Shown here: piece after piece, positions 27,041 to 56,437 of the stretch
Layout of the letters: every line of letters begins with the position of its first letter
Numbering within the stretch: position 1 is the stretch's first letter
NCBI GenBank assembly: GCA_000004985.1
Contig: GG738850.1
Strand: one strand, 5' to 3'
DNA: 64,000 nucleotides
Source of the DNA: Naegleria gruberi
Lineage: Eukaryota
Notes under the pieces: generated by a model
Told to the model about the DNA's origin: nothing
Seen by the model: only the letters and a program-made list of their open reading frames with translations
The model's database searches: none
Made by a program: the position numbers and the translations under genes

Positions 27041-28729
27041 ATGGGAACCCCAGATTGGGGTAATGATTTAACACTCAACTATGACACTTGCAATATTATG
27101 TCACTCACACAAAAACAATCAAAAAAAATGAGTAAACGAAATAGACAAGATTTGGAAAATCAATTAATTAATTATTCGGAGGAAAATAATATGGACGAGA
27201 AAGCAAAAAAGGTTTCAATGCAACGACAAGAAATATTTTCAGATGATGTTTGTTTTGAAATAATTTGCATGCTCGATGATTCGTGGTTTATTTTGAATAA
27301 TTGTTCATTGATTTCAAAACAATTCTTTAATGTGATCAAGGAACGTTCAAAACTTGTTATTCAATTTAATCAAAAATTTACAGAAACAAGAATTGAATTA
27401 TTCATGAAAAGTCAATTTATGAATAGTATTGTTCATCTTAAATTTTATAGAAGCTCGCTTGACTCTATAGAACAAGTCAAATTAATAAGTGAAATGAAAC
27501 AATTAAAATTACTTGATATTCGTGGAATTCAAATAGGAGATGAAGGAGCCAAATTTATAAGTGAAATGAAACAATTGAGATCACTTAGTATTTATAACAA
27601 TCAAATTGGTGTAGCAGGAGTCAAATCAATAAGTGAAATGAAACAATTAACATCACTTGCAATTTGTAACAATCGAATTGGTGATGAAGGAGTCAAATTT
27701 ATAAGTGAAATGAAACAATTAACGTCACTTACTATATGTTACAATCAAATTGGTGTTGAAGGAGTAAAATCCATAATTGAAATGAACCAATTAAAATCAC
27801 TTAATATATCTTACAATGAAATTGGAGATGAAGGCGCGAAATCAATATGTGAAATGAAACAATTAACATCACTTAATATATGTGACAATCGAATTGGTGT
27901 AGAAGGAATCAAATCAATATGTGAAATGAAACAATTAACATTACTTAATATATCTAAGAATCAAATTGGTGATGAAGGAGTCAAATTCATAATTGAAATG
28001 AAGCAATTAACGTCACTTGACATATGTTACAATCGAATTGGTGATGAAGGAGCCAAATCCATAAGTGAAATGAAACAATTGAAATCACTTGATATTTATA
28101 ATAATCAAATTAGTGATGAAGGAGTCAAATTTATAAGTGAAATGAAACAATTAACATCACTTGATATTAGTGCAAATGAAATTGGTGTAGAAGGAACCAA
28201 ATCAATATGTGAAATGAAACAATTAACATTACTTAATATATCTAAGAATCAAATTGGTGATGAAGGAGTCAAATTCATAATTGAAATGAAGCAATTAACG
28301 TCACTTGACATATGTTACAATCGAATTGGTGATGAAGGAGCCAAATCCATAAGTGAAATGAAACAATTGAAATCACTTGATATTTATAATAATCAAATTA
28401 GTGATGAAGGAGTCAAATTTATAAGTGAAATGAAACAATTAACATCACTTGATATTAGTGCAAATGAAATTGGCGTTGAAGGAGTCAAATCAATAAGTGA
28501 AATGAAACAATTAACATCACTTAATATTAATAACAATGAAATTGGTGATGAAGGAGCCAAATTTATAAGTGAAATGAAACAATTAACATCACTTAATATA
28601 TGTTACAATCGAATTGGTGTTGAAGGAGTCAAATTAATAGGTGAAATGAAACAATTGAAATCACTTAATATTAATTACCAAAAGACGAAATCTAAGGATT
28701 TGGTATGGATTACAAATGAGACTGCTTAA
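27041..28729 (+). CDS. F-box / RNI-like leucine-rich-repeat protein (about 18 tandem 24-aa LRRs)
   Basis: F-box region IFSDDVCFEIICMLDDSWFILNNCSLISKQFFNVI, followed by 72-nt (24-aa) repeats of consensus SEMKQLTSLDIxxNxIGDEGxKxI. The first ATG, at 27041, may not be the true start. Confidence 0.7.
   Translation: MGTPDWGNDLTLNYDTCNIMSLTQKQSKKMSKRNRQDLENQLINYSEENNMDEKAKKVSMQRQEIFSDDVCFEIICMLDDSWFILNNCSLISKQFFNVIKERSKLVIQFNQKFTETRIELFMKSQFMNSIVHLKFYRSSLDSIEQVKLISEMKQLKLLDIRGIQIGDEGAKFISEMKQLRSLSIYNNQIGVAGVKSISEMKQLTSLAICNNRIGDEGVKFISEMKQLTSLTICYNQIGVEGVKSIIEMNQLKSLNISYNEIGDEGAKSICEMKQLTSLNICDNRIGVEGIKSICEMKQLTLLNISKNQIGDEGVKFIIEMKQLTSLDICYNRIGDEGAKSISEMKQLKSLDIYNNQISDEGVKFISEMKQLTSLDISANEIGVEGTKSICEMKQLTLLNISKNQIGDEGVKFIIEMKQLTSLDICYNRIGDEGAKSISEMKQLKSLDIYNNQISDEGVKFISEMKQLTSLDISANEIGVEGVKSISEMKQLTSLNINNNEIGDEGAKFISEMKQLTSLNICYNRIGVEGVKLIGEMKQLKSLNINYQKTKSKDLVWITNETA
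27890..28470 (+). repeat. Near-perfect 288-bp tandem duplication (4 LRR units, 96 codons) inside the F-box/LRR gene
   Basis: The sequence at about 27913-28200 is repeated identically at 28201-28488 (offset exactly 288 bp). Identity decays only at the flanks. Confidence 0.85.
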
Positions 28730-28860
28730 TCAACCTCACACTTAAAATAACTATTAACATTCTTCCCAATATCTACGGTCAGGTTCTCGACGGAATTGCA
28801 ACCGATTGTGAATTATTTACATTGAGTAAGGTTTGAGGTTAATGAGAGGCTAATAATAAT

Positions 28861-28910
28861 AAAATAATAAAAATAGATTAGAATTATAAAATAATAAAAA
28901 TAGATTAGAA
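28861..28910. repeat. 23-bp direct repeat x2 (AAAATAATAAAAATAGATTAGAA) with 4-bp spacer, immediately upstream of the RCC1-like gene ATG
   Basis: Exact copies at 28861-28883 and 28888-28910. Confidence 0.7.
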
Positions 28911-28914
28911 AAAA

Positions 28915-30231
28915 ATGTCTGATGATCAACAAGAGGACCTTTCACCTTCCCGTCCGACTGAAAAAGAAGTAAAACCACCACCCCTTCGAAAATATGGCAA
29001 TTTGAATGATGTGAGAGAGGCTCATTCGTTCTATGCTGTAGGAAATATGGCAACAATCTTTGTTTTTATGGCACAGAATAATGCAGATAGTTTTGAATTG
29101 ATTGCGTTGGAGGGAGAACAATTTCCTGACGAGGTACGTGATAAGCGTGTGTCGTTGATCTTATCTGGTGGGAGAGCAAGTGGAGTTTATTCAATATTTA
29201 TGATTAGAGGATTGGAAAAGAAAGGTTTCTTGTTGGGAAAGGGAGTTGTGAAATATTTTACATACGAAAGGTTGATGAATGATGTGGATAGTTCAAAATC
29301 GAGGAGATTTAATCGATGTTTGGCTTGTTGTGAGGGATATGTAATTTTAGAGATGGAGGATGAGGAATTGTATATATTTGAAATTGTGGATGAAGTTTTA
29401 AAACCATTTAAATTGGAAAAAAAAGTGAAACTAATTGCTCACAATATGATGTCTAGCACTGTTGCTGTGTATTTTACAGATCATACTTTGAGGATTGTAG
29501 ATTTGACAAATGACAACAAGTTGGGAAATGAAATTGAGTTAATTAATAATTCTCCAATCAAAGTCTTGGCGAAATATGCAGCAGATTTATTTATTTTCGT
29601 TCATCAGGATGATTCCATGTATATTTATAGAAATGATGAGGAAAGTGATGGGTTTGTTAGTATTCCAGACAATGTCACTACTCAAATCAAAACTGAGTTT
29701 TCATCTCCAATCAAACAATTGGTTGCTGGTTATTCACATTTTGTTGTTCTACTTGAAGATGGAAAATGTTATACCAGGTAGGTTATTTTGTAAATGATAT
29801 AGTTGAATTGAATGCTAATTCTCTTTTAATAACCAAGAGGGATGAACAATTATGGTCAAATAGATGGTAAAATGGGTGGTGAGGGCTCTACAGTGACTCA
29901 TTTTCATCCAATTCTTCACAATATTGGAACAGTGCTCTCTGTGAATTGTTCTTCATTATCCACAACTTTGGAAACAGAAAGTGAAATAGTTCTTGTCGGA
30001 GAAGTTTCTCAAACATTCCAAAAGTTAAGTTATCCTTATTGTCAGGGAATGAATAGCTTTTGGGTTCATAGAAAAGAATTCTCAGATGAAACAACTAGCT
30101 TTGGACCTTGGCATGGATTTATTTATAGAGCTAGTTTCCATAATTTACCTTGTAAGACATTACAATATTTCAAAAATAATTTGAGAATGTTGGTAAAGGT
30201 TCCTAAACTTTCTGATATTTCCATTCAATAA
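28915..30231 (+). CDS. RCC1-repeat (regulator of chromosome condensation-like) protein; 2 exons (28915-29780, 29838-30231)
   Basis: A 57-nt intron (GTAGGT ... GCTAAT ... AAG) joins ...DGKCYT|R|GMNNYGQIDGKMGG, which is an RCC1 blade signature. ATG at 28915. Confidence 0.65.
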
Positions 30232-36845: not shown

Positions 36846-37874
36846 TTACAGTTGTTGATTGGTATTATTCATTCGTTGTAAATATTCGTTCAATCTGAGC
36901 TGAATGACAAACTTATTGAGATGATAGACAAAATATTCGTCAGAGTTTTCCATTTTGATTTCGTGAAGATCTTTGAGTTGAATCCAAGGTTTGGACTTTT
37001 CTATTGAGCTGAGCTTGTTCATGATCAGTTGATGGTATTCACTTCGTTTCTCTTCAGAGGGAAGATGATTTCTCACCTTCATTAATTGATCTCTTTCCTC
37101 AGAGCCATTTTCAAACCAGATACGTGGGGGTTTTCCTTGAATTAATCTCTCAGTTTCGTAACACAATCTTAGTGAGTGGTAGTAATTCTTTTGGTAACCT
37201 CGTTTGATTTTACCCTCTCCTTGTTGTAATTGTCTTTTAGCAAATGCACAATGAGATGAAATAACCTTCTTATTTAAGAATTGAATGTTTAACTTTTTCA
37301 AAGGTTCCCATTCTCTTGATTGATATTTATATGGGAAGAAATCTGGAACGAATAATGTTTGAAATACGAAAGGATTTCCATGTAGACACAATTCCAAATA
37401 TTTTCCAATTTCTAATTAATTATTAGATTAATCCAAATAATATAAATATTAATATTATTATTTTGTTGTAATTAATAGTAATAAATTAATAATAATTATT
37501 ATAATAAATAATGATCTGATCAAAGTACACAACCTACCAAAACATGAAATATCATTTCCATCCTTTGTTACGGTACAAATTCCCTTATCAGCCAAATTCA
37601 ACACCTTTGCCTTGGCACTTCCAATGCTACTAATATCAACATATGATAATTTTGGTTCATCAATAGAAAAAGAAGGCATTGATAGGAATTGCTCACACGG
37701 TAACATGTAAATCATGACAAAATCAAAATCACTCTTATTTTCATTCTTTAAATTGTAGAGTGTTGATCCGACAGCTGTGATGAACAGTAATTTAGCCTTT
37801 GGTGAAACATTTTCCTTCAGGAAATCCTCACCCATCAATTTGATAGAATTTTCATCGAATTGTTTGTTGTTCAT
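36846..37874 (-). CDS. Minimal nucleotidyltransferase-fold (Pol-beta superfamily) protein, 2 exons (37874-37538, 37411-36846)
   Basis: N-terminal LLFITAVGSTLYNL...SDFDFVMIYMLP matches the GS...[DE]h[DE]h nucleotidyltransferase signature. A 126-nt AT-rich intron, 37537-37412, has a GTAGGT donor and AG acceptor; phase verified (...DISCF|E|IGKYLELCLHG...). Confidence 0.45.
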
Positions 37875-37879
37875 TTTTT

Positions 37880-39480
37880 TTAATCAAATACCTAAACAGA
37901 AAAACCTTAGAGTACTTGGCCATTACCCTTGGGATGATACTTTGGTAACACAAGACATCCAATCCAAGATAGACAAATTCACAAAATCATTAAGATTTTT
38001 ACCATTATTCAAATTACAGCCAACAAACCTTAAAATAATTATGCATGCTAAAGCAATCAGCCTATTCACTCACCTCTCAAAAATCAATATAATCCCTTTA
38101 AAGAAAGCTCAGGAAATAGATCGTGCAATTAGAGGTGCAATCAGACGTAAATTATTAATGGACAGAGCAACTCCAACAAGTTTCTTTCACCTGCCATTAG
38201 AAGAAGGTGGATTAGGATTACCATCAATTGAGGAATTCTCTGAAAGAATGAATTTAAGAACTATGAATTTAATCGCCAATAATAAGAATAAGTTAATAAG
38301 AAAAGCTTTCAAACATGGTATCAAACATTGTGAGGAAACTAAAGATAATATTTATGCTAAATGGTTATCTGTACTTAAAGAATATAATCTCACATTTGTG
38401 CAGAATGATACGAAATTTAGAATAGCCAAAATTAAAACAGGGAATAGTTTCGATATCCATACAGATGGATCTAGAATTAATCAAAAGACAGGAATGGGTA
38501 TTAATATTTATGATACCTCAAATAGATCAGTTCCTTGTAAAACTTTATCCCTCAGAATCAATAATCATTATTCAAATAATATAGCCGAAATATGCTCTAT
38601 AATAACTTCTATTAATGTAATCCCACGAAACTCTAAAGTTACCATTCATACTGATAGTGAAGTTGCAATAGAAGTTCTCAAAGATAGATACAAAGGAGAT
38701 TTTCTAACATTAAAAGAAGCCTTCTTTAGAACAACCAAAAATAGAAAAATAGAATATGAAATTAAGAAAGTTGAAGCACACAAAGATAGCGAGAATATCA
38801 AGGTTGATTTAATAGCAAAGAATGCTACAACCAGAGATGATATTTTTGATATTCGTAATTTACTCAAGAATCAACACCTCCTTGTTAAGGATGGTGTTGT
38901 CATCTTCAATCATAAGAAGATGACCATAACAAGACATTTAAGTGTAAGACATAATAAGATGAATGAAAACCCTAACTTTATTCTAAACCAAAGTTGGTAT
39001 TCTCTTAATGTGCAATACCTTAAAACTCGTCTTACTCCTAAAACTAAATACTTTATATGGAGAAATTCCATCAATGCCCATATCAATTTTGGTAAGGGTA
39101 AAAGTTTCTGTTACGATTGTGGTACAGAATCTGATTTATTCCATTACATTCATGAGTGCCCTGGCTTGGATAGTGCCAGGTATTTTTGTCAGTCAAAGAT
39201 ATCTGATATTCTTGAAGGGAGAGAGTGCTTACTTTCTCATTTTCAATTCAAACCAGAAAAGCATCACCATGCATTACATTTCCATCATAACGGAATCACC
39301 TCTTTCGAAGATGGATACATGCAATTCCATAAAGACATCGCTAAGAAGTGGCCAGAGATCCAAGGTGCCATTTCTAACTTTGTCGGCCGTTCCTATTCTA
39401 ACTATTATATTGACTCCAAATAATTTATATAACCTATGAGAATCTGAATAGATTCGTTATTGTCGTAATAAAAGATTTTT
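37880..39480 (+). mobile_element. 5'-truncated non-LTR (LINE) retrotransposon remnant: ORF2 tail with RT thumb, RNase H and zf-RVT (CCHC-like) domains
   Basis: RT C-terminal/thumb region (KNLRVLGHYPWDD...LPLEEGGLGLP). RNase H motifs (HTDGS ... AEICS ... IHTDSE ... KVEAHKDSENIKVDLIAKNA). zf-RVT-like motif (PKTKYFIWRNSIN...CYDCGTESDLFHYIHEC). No catalytic RT motifs or endonuclease upstream, so the copy is truncated. The ORF-track coordinates 37777-37879 are read-through into the neighbouring gene, not element sequence. Confidence 0.65.
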
Positions 39481-39583: not shown

Positions 39584-39654
39584 GCGTCGATGGTTTAGTG
39601 GTAGAATACGGCGTTGCCATCGCCGTGACCCGGGTTCAATTCCCGGTCGACGCA
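39584..39654 (+). tRNA. tRNA-Gly (anticodon GCC)
   Basis: 71-nt cloverleaf: acceptor GCGTCGA/TCGACGC, D-arm TGGTTTAGTGGTAGAATA, anticodon stem CGGCG/CGCCG with loop TTGCCAT, T-arm CCGGGTTCAATTCCCGG. Confidence 0.9.
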
Positions 39655-51703: not shown

Positions 51704-53323
51704 TTACTTAAACATCTGTTGGTTATGAATACTAAGTGATTTTAATTGTTTCATTTCACTTATTGATTTGACTCCTTCACCACCAATTTCATTGTAACAT
51801 ATATCAAGTGATGTTAATTGTTTCATTTCACTTATGAATTTGGATCCTTCAGCACCAATTCGATTCTTAGATATATTAAGTGATGTTAATTGTTTCATTT
51901 CACTTATTGATTTGACTCCTTCATCACCAATTCCATTTCCACCAATATTAAGTGATATTAATTGTTTCATTTCACTTATAAATTTGACTCCTTTATCACC
52001 AATTTCATTGTAACATATATTAAGTGATTTTAATTGTTTCATTTCACTTATTGATTTGACTCCTTCAACACCAATTTGATTGTTATAAATATAAAGTGAT
52101 GTTAATTGTTTCATTTCACTTATTGATTTGACTCCTTCAACACCAATTTCATTGTTATAAATATTAAGTGATGTTAACTGTTTCATTTCACTTATATATT
52201 TGGATCCTTCATCACCAATTTCATTTCCACCAATATCAAGTAATTTTAATTGTTTCATTTCACTTATAAATTTGGCTCCTTCATCACCAATTCCATTTCC
52301 ACTAATATCAAGTGATGTTAATTGTTTCATTTCACTTATTGATTTGACTCCTTTATCACCAATTCCATTTCCACTAATATCAAGTGATGTTAACTGTTTC
52401 ATTTCACTTATTGATTTGGCTCCTTCATCACCAATTCGATTGTTATAAATACTAAGTGATGTTAATTGTTTCATTTCACTTATTGATTTGACTCCTTCAT
52501 CACCAATTCGATTTTCACCAATATTAAGTGATGTTAACTGTTTCATTTCACTTATATATTTGGATCCTTCATCACCAATTTCATTTCCACCAATATCAAG
52601 TAATTTTAATTGTTTCATTTCACTTATAAATTTGACTCCTTTATCACCAATTCCATTTCCACTAATATCAAGTGATGTTAACTGTTTCATTTCACTTATT
52701 GATTTGGCTCCTTCAACACCAATTTCATTGTTATTAATACTAAGTGATGTTAATTGTTTCATTTCACTTATTGATTTGGCTCCTTCATCACCAATTCGAT
52801 TGTTATCAATATTAAGTGATGTTAATTGTTTCATTTCACTTATATATTTGGATCCTTCATCACCAATTTCATTTCCACCAATATCAAGTGATGTTAATTG
52901 TTTCATTTCACTTATGAATTTGGCTCCTTCAGCACCAATTCGACTGTAACATATATCAAGTGATGTTAATTGTTTCATTTCACTTATTGATTTGGCTCCT
53001 TCATCACCAATTTGATTTTCACCAATATCAAGTAATTTTAATTGTTTCATTTCAGTTATGAATTTTACTTGTTTAGAGTCAAGCAACCTTCTCGAAAATT
53101 TAAGATGAACAATACTATTCATAAATTGACTTTTCATGAATAATTCAATTCTTGTTTCTGTAAATTTTTGATTAAATTGAATAACAAGTTTTGAACGTTC
53201 CTTGATTACATTAAACCATTGTTTTGAAATCAATGAACAATTATTTAAAATAAACCACGCATCATCGAGCATGCAAATTATTTCAAAACAAACATCATCT
53301 GAAAATATTTCCCTCTCCTCCAT
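51704..53323 (-). CDS. F-box / RNI-like leucine-rich-repeat protein, paralog of 27041-28729 in inverted orientation
   Basis: ATG at 53323. The first roughly 100 aa (MEEREIFSDDVCFEIICMLDDAWFILNNCSLISKQWFNVIKERSKLVIQFNQKFTETRIELFMKSQFMNSIVHLKF...) are nearly identical to the + strand paralog at both protein and DNA level. Followed by about 19 x 24-aa LRRs with internal multi-repeat duplications. Confidence 0.75.
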   Translation of the reverse strand: MEEREIFSDDVCFEIICMLDDAWFILNNCSLISKQWFNVIKERSKLVIQFNQKFTETRIELFMKSQFMNSIVHLKFSRRLLDSKQVKFITEMKQLKLLDIGENQIGDEGAKSISEMKQLTSLDICYSRIGAEGAKFISEMKQLTSLDIGGNEIGDEGSKYISEMKQLTSLNIDNNRIGDEGAKSISEMKQLTSLSINNNEIGVEGAKSISEMKQLTSLDISGNGIGDKGVKFISEMKQLKLLDIGGNEIGDEGSKYISEMKQLTSLNIGENRIGDEGVKSISEMKQLTSLSIYNNRIGDEGAKSISEMKQLTSLDISGNGIGDKGVKSISEMKQLTSLDISGNGIGDEGAKFISEMKQLKLLDIGGNEIGDEGSKYISEMKQLTSLNIYNNEIGVEGVKSISEMKQLTSLYIYNNQIGVEGVKSISEMKQLKSLNICYNEIGDKGVKFISEMKQLISLNIGGNGIGDEGVKSISEMKQLTSLNISKNRIGAEGSKFISEMKQLTSLDICYNEIGGEGVKSISEMKQLKSLSIHNQQMFK

Positions 53324-53557: not shown

Positions 53558-56437
53558 TTACAATGTTTGTGGTGGATACTTTTCAGTAAGATAGGTATTG
53601 ATAGCAGGTAAATGTTTAGAAAGGAATTTGGCATTCTTTTCAATAGCTTCCAAAGTATTCGAATAATGCTTCATGCTCAATTTTTCAATATTTGGAGCAA
53701 AAAATTGAATCAATTCATCCCTTTCAAAGATATTAGTGAATAGAGAACCAACCCCATATACTAATCTATTACTGACTTGATCTTGTCCGCATTTTGAGAG
53801 AATGGCATCATATCTAGTTCTGACAAAATTCCAAGCAACGTTTGGTCCACTTGGTACATTTCTTGCAACTTCTCTAATAAGGAAGATACTATCTTGTGGC
53901 TTAACATGTGGAGAAAGGGCCAAATCCAAAGTCGTTTGCAAGAGTGGAATTTGTTGAGTGTATGCAAGTGCATACATTAACTTGGTTCTTTCCACAGAAT
54001 CTTGCTCAGCTTTGAATTGATTCAAAATTTGATAATATTCACGTTCTCCACCATTAGAAACAACAGCTCTATAAACAGCATTACGAAGAATTGGAGGAAT
54101 AATGGTTGAGTTTCTTTCTTGATAACGTTTAAAGGCTTCAGTGACACATTCAGTGAGACCAAAACGACAGGCCAAATTGAGAACAAATGGACGTAACTCA
54201 TCAAGATTTTCCTCATCTTCATCTGCTCCTGGTACATTGGTCCATCCAATTGATTCATACTTGTTTTTAACCAAATCTTTTACCATTCTAGAGAATGAGT
54301 TTGAAACACTTTCGGCGGCCAACAATTGATGAAGTTTGAGAATGGATTGATACATATTTTCCCACAAAATACTAGTGTCATCATTCTTCAAAGCAAGAAG
54401 CATTTCAAACATTAAAGAGGAATCAATATTTTCAACAGTTGATGTGGCAATAGAAAAAATGTCATTGAAAAGATCAAATCTATCCTCAGTGTCAAAATCT
54501 TCAATCTTGGCAATTAAATTCTTCCACATCTTGGTTGAGTAATTGACACGGTAGAAACCAGTCTTGTGATAGTTAAACTTGTAAACCTTATCAGTAATCT
54601 TCAATGATGGAACCTTACTGGACATTTCAACCTTTTTAACATCTCCATCAGCAGAGGTTACATATGTTAATGGAATCCACCATGTTGAATTTTTAAATTG
54701 GTCAACTTGTGTTGCATTTGCATATGAAAAGAATCTGTTTTGTGAGAGAGAAATAGTGCCATCAGCATTTTCATTGACTTGAACGATTGGCATACCTGGT
54801 TGATGTAACCATGTACCAAAGTTGGTAGCAGTTTCTTGAACATTTTGTACAGGAAGAAGTTCCAATAATTGCTTAGTTTCAGCATTTTGATTCTTGTACT
54901 TGGCAAAGTAGGAACGAATCCATTGCACGAACTTGTCTTCTCCCAAATAATTGAAGAACATACTCAATACAGCACCACCCTTGTCGTAGGTAATGGAATT
55001 GAACAAGGAATCAATTTCATCCTTAGATTGAATCTTGTCATATAATCTCACAATAGGATCAGCACTTGGAACAGAATCAGCATCAGCAGCATAAATAACA
55101 CTATTGGTGAGCTTTTTCAAACCTCTCTTCCAATCAGGATAGGTCTTATCCAAGGCGTATGTTTCCATGAATGTGGCAAAACCTTCATTCAACCAGAGGT
55201 GAGTCCAAAATGCACAAGTGATAATATTTCCATTGAATTGGTGAGAAATTTCATGACTCACAACTTCAATACCATTTTCCTTATCGAGTTGTGAAGCTGT
55301 AGCATTATCGAAAATAATATAAGTTTCACGATAGGTAATTAATCCAAAATTTTCCATAGCACCACTTGCAAAGGATGGAATTGAAATGTGATCCATCTTG
55401 TTAATTGGGTATTCAACTTGATAGAGATCTTGGAAGAATTTGGTGACCTTGATGGAAGCTTCAAGAGCAGCTCTACCTTGTTCTGATTTACCAACAGGTG
55501 TATAAATTCTATGTCTAATCTTTCCATCAGTTTTTTCAATATAATCATATTGTCCAATAATGAAAGCAATCAAATAGGTAGACATGAGTGGAGTCTTGTC
55601 AAATTTAACTTTAACTCTTCCATCAGGGAGGTTTGTTCTTTCAATTTCATCAGTGTTAAATAAAACTCTTGTTTTTTCATCCTTCAATTTTGTGGTAATT
55701 GTCATTTGATAGGTAGCTTTGAATTTTGGTTCATCAAATAAAGGAATAGCAGCTCTACCATCTTCACTTTCAAATTGAGTTGACAATACAGTAGATCCAT
55801 CTGCTGCCTTACTAGAATAAAATCCTCTCATATCAGTTCTAATTGGAGCTTGATATTCAATTCTCAAAATATAAAAAGCTCCCTTTTCAAGATTATTCTT
55901 TGTATGAACTTGAATCTTTCTATACTTTTCCAAAACTGCAGTTGAAAATCCACTTAATACTACTTCTGAAGATGTCTTTTCACTCTTAATAGAAATACCT
56001 GCTAATTTACCATCTACTGCTGGAAGAACACCATTTTTAGCATGTTGCTTCTTTTGATCTTCTGTTGCTTTGATAATTGCCACGAATTGCATTTCCTCAG
56101 CACTCAACTCTACAACATTAGTTTCTGTAGTAACTTCCAATCTAATAGAAACCACTCCATTAAAAGTAGTAGCACCATCCAACAATGCTTCAATTTCAAT
56201 ATCATAATGACGAGGAAGAATAGTATCGGGTAATCTGTATGGATAAGTCTTTACACCATCATCTTCTATAACTCCATCCCATCCACGAATTAAATAGGTT
56301 GCCCAAATGGTTACACCAGCCACAATTATAGTCAGGATGGCCACCACTACAATGGAAATAATGGTCAATCTCCTCTTCTCTGCTACATTTTCCTGTCCAA
56401 TACGAGTCGCATCGTGATGACCCGAAGAACTCAACAT
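53558..56437 (-). CDS. Membrane-anchored aminopeptidase N (M1 zinc metallopeptidase), 959 aa, single exon
   Basis: N-terminal signal-anchor RLTIISIVVVAILTIIVAGVTIWATYLI. Exopeptidase motif GAMEN (FASGAMENFGL). Zinc-binding HEISHQFNGN...WLNEGFATF (HExxH-x18-E). ERAP-like C-terminal domain. Confidence 0.9.
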   Translation of the reverse strand: MLSSSGHHDATRIGQENVAEKRRLTIISIVVVAILTIIVAGVTIWATYLIRGWDGVIEDDGVKTYPYRLPDTILPRHYDIEIEALLDGATTFNGVVSIRLEVTTETNVVELSAEEMQFVAIIKATEDQKKQHAKNGVLPAVDGKLAGISIKSEKTSSEVVLSGFSTAVLEKYRKIQVHTKNNLEKGAFYILRIEYQAPIRTDMRGFYSSKAADGSTVLSTQFESEDGRAAIPLFDEPKFKATYQMTITTKLKDEKTRVLFNTDEIERTNLPDGRVKVKFDKTPLMSTYLIAFIIGQYDYIEKTDGKIRHRIYTPVGKSEQGRAALEASIKVTKFFQDLYQVEYPINKMDHISIPSFASGAMENFGLITYRETYIIFDNATASQLDKENGIEVVSHEISHQFNGNIITCAFWTHLWLNEGFATFMETYALDKTYPDWKRGLKKLTNSVIYAADADSVPSADPIVRLYDKIQSKDEIDSLFNSITYDKGGAVLSMFFNYLGEDKFVQWIRSYFAKYKNQNAETKQLLELLPVQNVQETATNFGTWLHQPGMPIVQVNENADGTISLSQNRFFSYANATQVDQFKNSTWWIPLTYVTSADGDVKKVEMSSKVPSLKITDKVYKFNYHKTGFYRVNYSTKMWKNLIAKIEDFDTEDRFDLFNDIFSIATSTVENIDSSLMFEMLLALKNDDTSILWENMYQSILKLHQLLAAESVSNSFSRMVKDLVKNKYESIGWTNVPGADEDEENLDELRPFVLNLACRFGLTECVTEAFKRYQERNSTIIPPILRNAVYRAVVSNGGEREYYQILNQFKAEQDSVERTKLMYALAYTQQIPLLQTTLDLALSPHVKPQDSIFLIREVARNVPSGPNVAWNFVRTRYDAILSKCGQDQVSNRLVYGVGSLFTNIFERDELIQFFAPNIEKLSMKHYSNTLEAIEKNAKFLSKHLPAINTYLTEKYPPQTL

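What the first reader, a model, noticed from the sequence alone, without database searches (positions are those of the whole stretch)
27890..28470. Perfect 288-bp (4-LRR) tandem duplication inside the F-box/LRR gene; concerted evolution of 72-nt repeats
A 288-bp segment, about 27913-28200, is repeated with no mismatches at 28201-28488. The duplication junctions coincide with repeat-unit boundaries, so the reading frame is maintained. The minus-strand paralog shows similar multi-unit internal duplications (LDIGGNEIGDEGSKYISEMKQLTSLNI recurs three times). Repeat number is therefore dynamic, by unequal crossing-over or replication slippage. This is typical of rapidly evolving recognition modules.
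Basis: seen in the sequence. Interest (0 to 1): 0.5.

Follow-up and report, generated by a model that had tools for sequence, protein, structure and literature searches.

The report
Recent four-repeat duplication in LRR gene
An amoeba (Naegleria gruberi) gene for an F-box protein with leucine-rich repeats recently gained four extra repeats through one in-frame 288-bp tandem duplication, which is a real but ordinary way for such repeat genes to change length.

Summary
The window is Naegleria gruberi NEG-M nuclear DNA. The ORF at 27041-28729 (+), probably starting at 27128, encodes a divergent F-box followed by 16 full 24-residue GALA/CC-type leucine-rich repeats.

- The longest exact repeat is 276 bp (27910-28185 = 28198-28473).
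- The true duplicated unit is 27892-28179 / 28180-28467, which is 287/288 identical.
- AATTGG occurs at 27892, 28180 and 28468, delimiting the two copies.

The junction repeat A10 is a chimera. Its head matches A14 and its tail matches A06, apart from one later T>C change (Ile>Thr, 28197). This is the signature of a single unequal, in-register exchange or template switch that raised the array from 12 to 16 units.

"Concerted evolution" does not hold for this gene. Its other units differ by about 17% and are no closer to each other than to units of the paralog. It does hold statistically for the minus-strand paralog (51704-53323).

Variable residues cluster at the LxxLxLxxNx "x" positions (pN/pS 2.7, against 0.29 for the framework), as expected for a binding surface. 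This is a new instance of a well-known process, so interest is low. An assembly artefact cannot be excluded without reads.

The parts
27041..28729 (+). Gene A: longest ORF (562 aa) encoding an F-box-like domain plus an LRR array. The probable true start is the ATG at 27128 (533 aa).
   Evidence: ORF list. Pfam LRR_6 3.7e-73, LRR_8, LRR_4. The closest annotated paralog, XP_002680560 (P0125), starts MRKRNRQDLEN and aligns with residue 30, MSKRNRQDLEN, at 27128. Flanking ORFs are exact matches to N. gruberi XP_002681531 and XP_002681536.
27233..27355 (+). Divergent F-box-like motif (IFSDDVCFEIICMLDDSWFILNNCSLISKQFFNVIKERSKL).
   Evidence: Gene A alone gives no Pfam F-box hit, and gene B gives PF12937 at E = 0.15. 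9 of 10 aligned family N-termini hit PF12937 and 8 of 10 hit PF00646, best E 4.9e-7. A profile of 8 annotated paralogs scores A at 2.7e-22 and B at 8.7e-24. Of 62 further relatives found with the profile, 18 hit PF12937 and 16 hit PF00646 at E <= 1e-3. The full-length AF2 model shows three N-terminal helices at pLDDT 60-78.
27503..28654 (+). Array of 16 full 72-nt (24-aa) LRR units, A01-A16, with consensus LTSLDIxxNxIGDEGxKxISEMKQ. A degenerate unit lies before it (27431-27502) and a truncated one after it (28655-28726).
   Evidence: Unit table. TRF period 72, 16.6 copies. 17 matches to the EMKQLTSL-encoding 24-mer on the + strand. AF2 model pLDDT 88.3, with one beta-strand and one helix per 24 residues.
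27892..28179 (+). Copy 1 of the 288-bp duplication: tail of A06, then A07, A08, A09, then head of A10.
   Evidence: Offset-288 identity tract 27892-28185 with one mismatch at 27909.
28180..28467 (+). Copy 2 of the 288-bp duplication: tail of A10, then A11, A12, A13, then head of A14. A11 = A07, A12 = A08 and A13 = A09, each with 0 mismatches.
   Evidence: Unit distance matrix and run analysis.
28151..28222 (+). Junction unit A10, a chimera. Nt 1-35 are identical to A14. Nt 30-72 are identical to A06 except nt 47 (28197 C, where both A06 and A14 have T; Ile>Thr). The exchange interval is AATTGG at 28180-28185, and the same hexamer occurs at 27892 and 28468.
   Evidence: Three-way comparison of A06, A10 and A14.
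51704..53323 (-). Gene B: inverted paralog (539 aa) with the same F-box-like N-terminus and 18 full LRR units. It carries several partial internal duplications: 115 bp exact at offset 360, 86 bp at offset 288, and 63 bp at offsets 288 and 648.
   Evidence: ORF list, unit table, exact runs, A/B alignment.

Best explanation
Gene A is a Naegleria gruberi F-box/LRR protein, inferred to be a substrate-recognition subunit of an SCF-type ubiquitin ligase. Its divergent F-box would dock on Skp1, and its horseshoe of 24-residue GALA/CC-type LRRs would bind the target.

Very recently, one in-register unequal exchange took place between unit A06 and the unit now called A14, four units apart. It could have been unequal sister-chromatid or homolog recombination, or a replication template switch. 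It resolved within a 6-bp identical patch (AATTGG). The result was a head-to-tail duplication of 288 bp (96 codons), which lengthened the array from 12 to 16 full repeats and created the chimeric unit A10.

One substitution has occurred since (28197 T>C, Ile>Thr, at a variable repeat position). The effect is four extra turns of the LRR solenoid that duplicate an existing stretch of binding surface, which can now diverge.

Shown here: the duplication, its breakpoints, the chimera, the fold class, and homology to F-box/LRR paralogs. Inferred: SCF function, the molecular mechanism of the exchange, and any adaptive value.
For: - Organism and locus: flanking ORFs are exact matches to N. gruberi proteins on a 707,703-bp scaffold.
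- Exact repeat of 276 bp, and 287/288 identity in the best frame. Chance probability is about 1e-21.
- The identity tract is 294 bp, which equals the period plus a 6-bp microhomology. The two copies abut exactly, and A10 is an A14-head/A06-tail chimera. This is what one unequal exchange predicts.
- Units A07-A09 equal A11-A13 with 0 mismatches, whereas other unit pairs differ by about 12/72.
- The ORF stays open through 562 codons in a 33.5% GC genome.
- LRR Pfam hits. AF2 model pLDDT 88.3, pTM 0.83, a regular beta/alpha solenoid. Foldseek best match is the RipG4 (GALA) LRR domain at 8e-19. RNase inhibitor gives TM 0.70, and FBXL2-SKP1 is also matched.
- F-box homology through paralogs.
- pN/pS is 2.74 at repeat positions 5, 7, 8 and 10, against 0.29 in the framework.
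- The NEG-M assembly is Sanger-based (PMC9928731, Table 1). From general knowledge of Sanger read lengths, single reads could span most or all of the 576-bp duplicated stretch.
- Unequal crossing-over as a driver of LRR diversification is established for plant NLR genes (PMC6032283).
Against: - No reads or second assembly could be examined, so an assembly error is not excluded.
- The exchange point has only 6 bp of perfect identity, which is short for classical homologous recombination. The mechanism (homeologous recombination or microhomology-mediated template switch) is therefore undecided.
- Gene A's own F-box region does not reach any Pfam threshold. The isolated N-terminal model was poor (pLDDT 69) and matched no F-box structure.
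- Neither gene A nor gene B was found in the protein collection, so there is no independent evidence here that they are annotated or expressed.
- The pN/pS comparison is between paralogous repeat units, so it is not a formal test of positive selection.
Confidence: 0.8

Rival explanations
1. Assembly artefact: the second 288-bp copy was created, or the true copy number mis-stated, when reads from a 72-nt repeat array were assembled.
For: Near-perfect tandem copies within a repeat array are a classic source of mis-assembly. No reads were available to check. The single difference between the copies (27909/28197) could be a base-call error.
Against: The NEG-M genome is Sanger-sequenced. Neighbouring units differ by about 17%, which gives unique anchors on both sides within read length. 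Assemblers more often collapse than expand identical repeats, so an error would more likely mean there are more than two copies. The junction unit is a clean chimera with a microhomology, as expected from a biological exchange.
Confidence: 0.07
2. Gene conversion without a change in copy number: a tract of about 294 bp from A06-A10 overwrote pre-existing, diverged units four positions downstream.
For: Gene B shows several short identical patches at offsets of 288, 360 and 648 bp, which look like conversion or partial duplication. This shows that sequence exchange between units does occur in this family.
Against: The identity tract (294 bp) equals the offset (288) plus the 6-bp microhomology, so donor and recipient abut exactly. 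A conversion tract has no reason to have that length. A single tandem duplication predicts it.
Confidence: 0.08
3. Long-term concerted evolution (continuous homogenisation) of the whole array, with the perfect block as its most recent trace.
For: Gene B's units are significantly more alike than A-versus-B units (9.3 vs 11.2 mismatches per 72, p = 0.0008). TRF reports a 288-nt period over both arrays.
Against: In gene A, units are no more alike than between genes (12.4 vs 11.2, p = 0.98). Outside the duplicated tract, offset-288 identity (84%) is barely above other offsets (81-83%).
Confidence: 0.05

Closest known systems
F-box/LRR (FBXL-type) SCF substrate receptors, e.g. Skp2 and FBXL2, with CC-type LRRs
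   Same: N-terminal F-box-like motif followed directly by an LRR solenoid. The FBXL2-SKP1 structure is among the Foldseek matches (6o60_C, E 3.6e-13). Paralog N-termini hit Pfam F-box and F-box-like.
   Different: The repeats are 24 residues with an IGxEGxK motif, not 26-residue Cys-containing units. Gene A's own F-box is too divergent to pass Pfam thresholds. No Skp1 interaction has been tested.
GALA / RipG type III effectors of Ralstonia solanacearum (F-box plus 24-residue GALA-LRR; Kajava et al. 2008, PMC2244805)
   Same: Same architecture, with an F-box followed by 24-residue LRRs. In the paper's numbering the units share Ile-5, Gly-6, Gly-9 and Ala/Val-10 (NxIGxEGA). The best structural match is the RipG4 LRR domain, 9j7j, E 8e-19, 26% identity. 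The paper already lists F-box proteins with GALA-like LRRs in protists.
   Different: This is a eukaryotic host gene, not a secreted bacterial effector. It has a conserved apolar residue (Met) at position 16, which the paper gives as a feature of 'GALA-like' rather than GALA repeats. No evolutionary link was tested.
Intragenic LRR-block duplication in plant resistance genes (NLR and Cf-type genes)
   Same: In-frame gain of whole LRR units by unequal exchange, with variable residues concentrated at the solvent-exposed x positions of LxxLxLxxN. The mechanism class is reviewed in PMC6032283.
   Different: There is no NB-ARC/NACHT or receptor domain here, the organism is a heterolobosean amoeba, and no phenotype or polymorphism data exist.
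Ribonuclease inhibitor (RI-type LRR)
   Same: Overall alpha/beta horseshoe. Foldseek TM-score up to 0.70 (4peq_B). Pfam LRR_6 is the top family.
   Different: RI repeats are 28-29 residues in alternating A/B types. The repeats here are uniform 24-residue units, with 17-19% sequence identity to RI.

Membership tests
Leucine-rich repeat proteins | Tandem LxxLxLxxN/CxL-containing units of 20-30 residues that are recognised by LRR profiles | tested here: met
   Pfam LRR_6 3.7e-73, LRR_8 3.5e-43, LRR_4 1.6e-40. 16 full units of exactly 24 aa.
Leucine-rich repeat proteins | Curved solenoid fold with one beta-strand per repeat on the concave face | tested here: met
   AF2 model pLDDT 88.3, pTM 0.83, alternating strand and helix every 24 residues. 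736 PDB matches at E <= 1e-3, and all 50 listed are LRR proteins.
GALA / GALA-like LRR (CC-LRR subfamily, Kajava 2008) | 24-residue unit with Ile at position 5, Gly at 6, Gly/Ala at 9 and Ala at 10 (paper numbering) | tested here: met
   The unit consensus N-x-I-G-D-E-G-A/V-K maps to positions 3-11 of the paper's motif (criteria read). The best structural match is RipG4 LRR.
GALA / GALA-like LRR (CC-LRR subfamily, Kajava 2008) | No conserved apolar residue at position 16 (strict GALA); a conserved one marks GALA-like repeats | tested here: not met
   Met is invariant at that position in all 30 distinct units. The repeats therefore fit 'GALA-like' rather than strict GALA.
F-box proteins | F-box sequence motif recognised by the curated profiles (PF00646 / PF12937) above threshold | tested here: not met
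   Gene A gives no F-box hit even at E <= 10. Gene B gives PF12937 at 12.3 bits, against a cut-off of 24.3.
F-box proteins | Homology of the N-terminal domain to bona fide F-box domains | tested here: met
   A and B score 2.7e-22 and 8.7e-24 against a profile of 8 paralogs. 9 of 10 family members hit PF12937 and 8 of 10 hit PF00646, best E 4.9e-7. Among 62 further relatives, 18 and 16 hit these families at E <= 1e-3, best 7e-19, and no non-LRR, non-F-box family recurs. The only PDB sequence hits of the profile are the F-boxes of FBXO44 and FBXW11, at a weak E of 0.5-0.7.
F-box proteins | Three-helix F-box fold | tested here: inconclusive
   The full-length model has helices at model residues 10-18, 23-33 and 35-44, but at pLDDT 60-78. 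The isolated-domain model has pLDDT 69 and pTM 0.31, with no significant PDB match.
F-box proteins | Binding to Skp1 in an SCF complex | not testable with these tools
   Needs an interaction assay or a complex prediction with N. gruberi Skp1.
Tandem duplication by unequal in-register exchange | Two abutting head-to-tail copies, an identity tract equal to the period plus microhomology, and a chimeric junction unit | tested here: met
   Tract 27892-28185 (294 bp = 288 + 6). AATTGG at 27892, 28180 and 28468. A10 has the head of A14 and the tail of A06.
Concerted evolution of a repeat array | Units within an array more similar to each other than to units of the paralogous array | tested here: not met
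   Gene A: 12.4 vs 11.2 mismatches per 72, p = 0.98. The feature is met only in gene B (9.3 vs 11.2, p = 0.0008).
NLR / STAND immune receptors | NACHT or NB-ARC NTPase domain joined to the LRRs | tested here: not met
   No such Pfam domain in gene A. NACHT-LRR proteins appear only as LRR-region hits from other organisms.

The most novel reading that the evidence does not exclude
Genes A and B, with their N. gruberi relatives, could belong to a large, lineage-specific and partly unannotated repertoire of F-box plus GALA-like-LRR ubiquitin-ligase adaptors. Their binding surfaces would diversify by unit duplication, shuffling and substitution, giving an amoebal intracellular recognition system, for example against bacterial or viral proteins. 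Such amoebal genes, rather than plant genes, could also be the eukaryotic source of the F-box/GALA-LRR effectors of Ralstonia and the LRR effectors of Legionella. Two observations leave this open: the best structural match is RipG4, and pN/pS is 2.7 on the concave-face positions. Nothing here tests it.
Probability: 0.1. Interest if true: 0.5.

Novelty: new member of a known kind. Interest (0 to 1): 0.15.

Why it matters
The value is mostly as a clean textbook example. The breakpoints, the 6-bp microhomology and the chimeric junction repeat can all be read directly from the sequence, showing how an LRR binding domain grows by four units in one step without breaking the frame.

There are also two practical points. 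First, two intact F-box/LRR genes in this window seem to be missing from the deposited N. gruberi protein set, so family counts for this genome may be underestimates. Second, the duplicated block is a convenient PCR-sized marker for copy-number polymorphism between N. gruberi isolates. It does not open a new question.

Tried and rejected
- Exact look-ups of the gene A ORF with three alternative starts, and of gene B, found nothing in the 15-billion-protein collection.
- The look-up of encoding contigs for the two flanking N. gruberi proteins returned nothing, so the deposited gene calls at the locus could not be read.
- A word-indexed homology search with gene A's N-terminus alone found no candidate. 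With the N-terminal alignment it found only one protein. That index clearly misses known paralogs, so I relied on the full HMMER scan instead.
- The AF2 model of the isolated N-terminal 80 residues was poor (pLDDT 69, pTM 0.31), and Foldseek against the PDB gave only noise with E > 1. It gives no structural proof of the F-box.
- A literature search for a described Naegleria F-box/LRR expansion found nothing specific.
- I considered a genuine 4-unit higher-order repeat across the whole array and rejected it. Outside the duplicated tract, offset-288 identity is 84%, against 81-83% at other offsets.
- I considered RI-type or NLR membership and rejected it, because the repeat length is wrong and there is no NTPase domain.
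- Between-strain or allelic comparison was not possible. The genome collection available is prokaryotic, and no Logan or other protein close to gene A was returned.

Full report
**Source and setting.** Two long ORFs in the window are exact matches to Naegleria gruberi proteins: XP_002681531 (30381-32681, minus strand) and aminopeptidase XP_002681536 (53558-56437, minus strand). Both are recorded on a 707,703-bp contig. The window is 33.5% GC. Its other ORFs are ordinary eukaryotic genes, including NT-C2/DIL, a GBF1-like Sec7 protein, a kinase, a Ras-family GTPase and JmjC-Kelch. The finding therefore lies in nuclear DNA of the amoeboflagellate N. gruberi NEG-M. A later pangenome paper lists that genome as Sanger-sequenced (PMC9928731, Table 1).

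**Checking the observation.**
- TRF finds a 72-nt period (16.6 copies) and a 288-nt period over 27475-28672.
- A base-by-base comparison at offset 288 gives one exact run of 276 bp, 27910-28185 = 28198-28473.
- Starting the frame anywhere from 27892 to 27898 leaves a single mismatch, 27909 T vs 28197 C, so the two copies are 287/288 identical.
- Elsewhere in the array, identity at offset 288 is 84%. A 276-bp exact run therefore has a probability of about 1e-21.

The duplication is real and very recent, but "no mismatches at those coordinates" is not correct.

**Anatomy of the event.** I phased the array on the invariant EMKQ|L boundary. This gives 16 full 24-residue units, A01 (27503) to A16 (ending at 28654).
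- A07, A08 and A09 are identical to A11, A12 and A13. All other unit pairs differ by 5-20 of 72 nt, with a mean of about 12.
- The junction unit A10 is a chimera. Nt 1-35 equal A14. Nt 30-72 equal A06 except nt 47, where both A06 and A14 have T and A10 has C.
- The exchange therefore lies in the hexamer AATTGG (28180-28185), which also occurs at 27892 and 28468.
- The tract of identity is 294 bp, which is the 288-bp period plus this 6-bp microhomology, and the two copies abut exactly.

This is what a single unequal, in-register exchange between A06 and the ancestor of A14 predicts. A gene-conversion tract would have that exact length only by coincidence. The array thus grew from 12 to 16 full units. 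The one difference between the copies is best read as a later T>C change (Ile>Thr) at repeat position 16, which is one of the variable positions.

With only 6 bp of perfect identity at the exchange point, I cannot tell homeologous recombination from a microhomology-mediated template switch. The frame is preserved because the period is 96 codons, not because the junction lies at a unit boundary. It does not.

**What the gene is.**
- *LRR region.* The 562-codon ORF (27041-28729) hits LRR_6 (3.7e-73), LRR_8 and LRR_4. An AlphaFold2 model of residues 59-562, built with nine paralogs as the alignment, has pLDDT 88.3 and pTM 0.83. It is a regular strand/helix solenoid.
- *Structural matches.* The best PDB match is the LRR domain of the Ralstonia effector RipG4, a GALA protein (E 8e-19, 26% identity). 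Next come ribonuclease inhibitors (TM up to 0.70), a Roco LRR domain and internalins. FBXL2-SKP1 is also matched.
- *Repeat class.* The unit consensus LTSLDIxxNxIGDEGxKxISEMKQ fits the 24-residue GALA/GALA-like class that Kajava et al. placed in the CC-LRR subfamily. They noted that this class often follows an F-box, including in protists (PMC2244805).
- *F-box.* The N-terminal motif IFSDDVCFEIICMLDDSWFILNNCSLISKQFFNVIKE looks like an F-box but fails Pfam on its own. Gene A gives no hit, and gene B gives 12.3 bits against a cut-off of 24.3. Homology settles the question. A profile of eight annotated N. gruberi paralogs scores A and B at about 1e-22. Nine of ten family N-termini hit F-box-like and eight hit F-box, best E 4.9e-7. 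A full HMMER scan of 1.84 billion representatives found 125 relatives. Of 62 of these outside the seed, 18 and 16 carry the two F-box families at E <= 1e-3, and no other non-LRR family recurs. A structural test of the isolated domain failed because the model was poor.
- *Conclusion.* I accept "F-box/LRR gene", with the F-box divergent and Skp1 binding untested.
- *Start codon.* The likely start is the ATG at 27128. The closest annotated paralog (XP_002680560, 69% identical) begins MRKRNRQDLEN opposite MSKRNRQDLEN.

**Concerted evolution and the paralog.** Gene B (51704-53323, minus strand) has the same N-terminus and 18 full units.
- Gene B contains several partial exact repeats: 115 bp at offset 360, 86 bp at offset 288, and 63 bp at offsets 288 and 648.
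- A label-permutation test shows that B's units are more alike than A-versus-B units (9.3 vs 11.2 mismatches per 72, p = 0.0008).
- A's units are not more alike once the duplicate copy is removed (12.4 vs 11.2, p = 0.98).

Homogenisation is therefore demonstrable in B. In A there is one event rather than ongoing concerted evolution. Outside the duplicated tract, gene A has no real 4-unit higher-order periodicity.

**Recognition surface.** Across the 30 distinct units, amino-acid entropy peaks at positions 5, 7, 8 and 10, which are the x positions of LxxLxLxxNx on the concave beta-face. The framework is nearly invariant. Pairwise pN/pS is 2.74 at those four positions, 1.14 at positions 13, 16 and 18, and 0.29 elsewhere. 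This is the usual pattern for LRR binding surfaces. It compares paralogous units, though, so it is not a formal selection test.

**Rivals.**
- *Assembly artefact.* This cannot be excluded without reads. However, Sanger reads, flanking units that differ by about 17%, and a biologically sensible chimeric junction make it unlikely. A collapse, meaning more copies in reality, would be the commoner error.
- *Gene conversion without a length change.* This is disfavoured by the exact abutment of the copies.

**Comparison with what is known.** In-frame gain of LRR blocks by unequal exchange is long established, for example in plant NLR and other resistance genes (review PMC6032283). F-box proteins with 24-residue GALA-like LRRs in protists were already noted in 2008. 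I found no paper describing this N. gruberi family specifically.

**Verdict.** This is a new, nicely resolved instance of a known process in a member of a known protein class. Interest is low (0.15).

Noticed in passing
window 27041-28729 (+) and 51704-53323 (-): Neither intact F-box/LRR ORF appears in the 15-billion-protein collection. Exact look-ups with three alternative starts failed, and no hit above 74% identity came back from any search, although the neighbouring N. gruberi genes are present. Both genes seem to be missing from the deposited N. gruberi gene set, perhaps because of repeat masking.
   Followed up: partly
window 27230-27446 vs 53311-53095: The F-box and linker DNA of genes A and B differs at only 5 of 217 nt (2.3%). 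Their LRR units differ by about 15% and are collinear only at the two ends. Homology starts at about the start codon of B and ends near the stop codons (27230/53311 to 28685/51715). Possible explanations are that the N-terminus was recently converted, or that the arrays are reshuffled much faster than point mutation, possibly with other family members.
   Followed up: partly
P0010 (XP_002675835) and P0017 (XP_002668605), other N. gruberi scaffolds: The same EMKQLTSL-type 24-aa units, 72-74% identical to gene B's array, sit at the C-termini of a kinase-domain gene model and an ABC-transporter gene model. This is either real domain shuffling of the LRR cassette or fused gene models.
   Followed up: no
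window 52200-52448 and 52488-52949 (+): Long ORFs (82 and 153 aa) lie antisense to gene B's LRR array and have their own repetitive translation (…SPIPFPLISSDVNCFISLI…). They are most likely a by-product of the periodic sequence, not genes.
   Followed up: no
window 28855-28910: A 27-bp AT-rich tandem repeat (2.1 copies, 96% match) lies in the intergenic stretch between gene A and the RCC1-like ORF that starts at 28915.
   Followed up: no
window 37777-39423 (+) and 39584-39654 (+): An ORF with an RNase H domain (PF00075, 6e-11) lies immediately upstream of a tRNA-Gly(GCC) gene. It could be a retroelement remnant next to a tRNA gene.
   Followed up: no
P0002 (Logan assembly, 598 aa) vs window 53567-55357: A protein from a public sequencing run is 94.6% identical to the N. 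gruberi aminopeptidase in this window. Read data from a closely related Naegleria strain or species therefore exist and could be used to compare LRR copy number.
   Followed up: no
window 28915-29781 and 29842-30231 (+): Two adjacent same-strand ORFs lie 60 nt apart, and the first ends in an RCC1-repeat match. They look like two exons of one gene split by a short intron.
   Followed up: no
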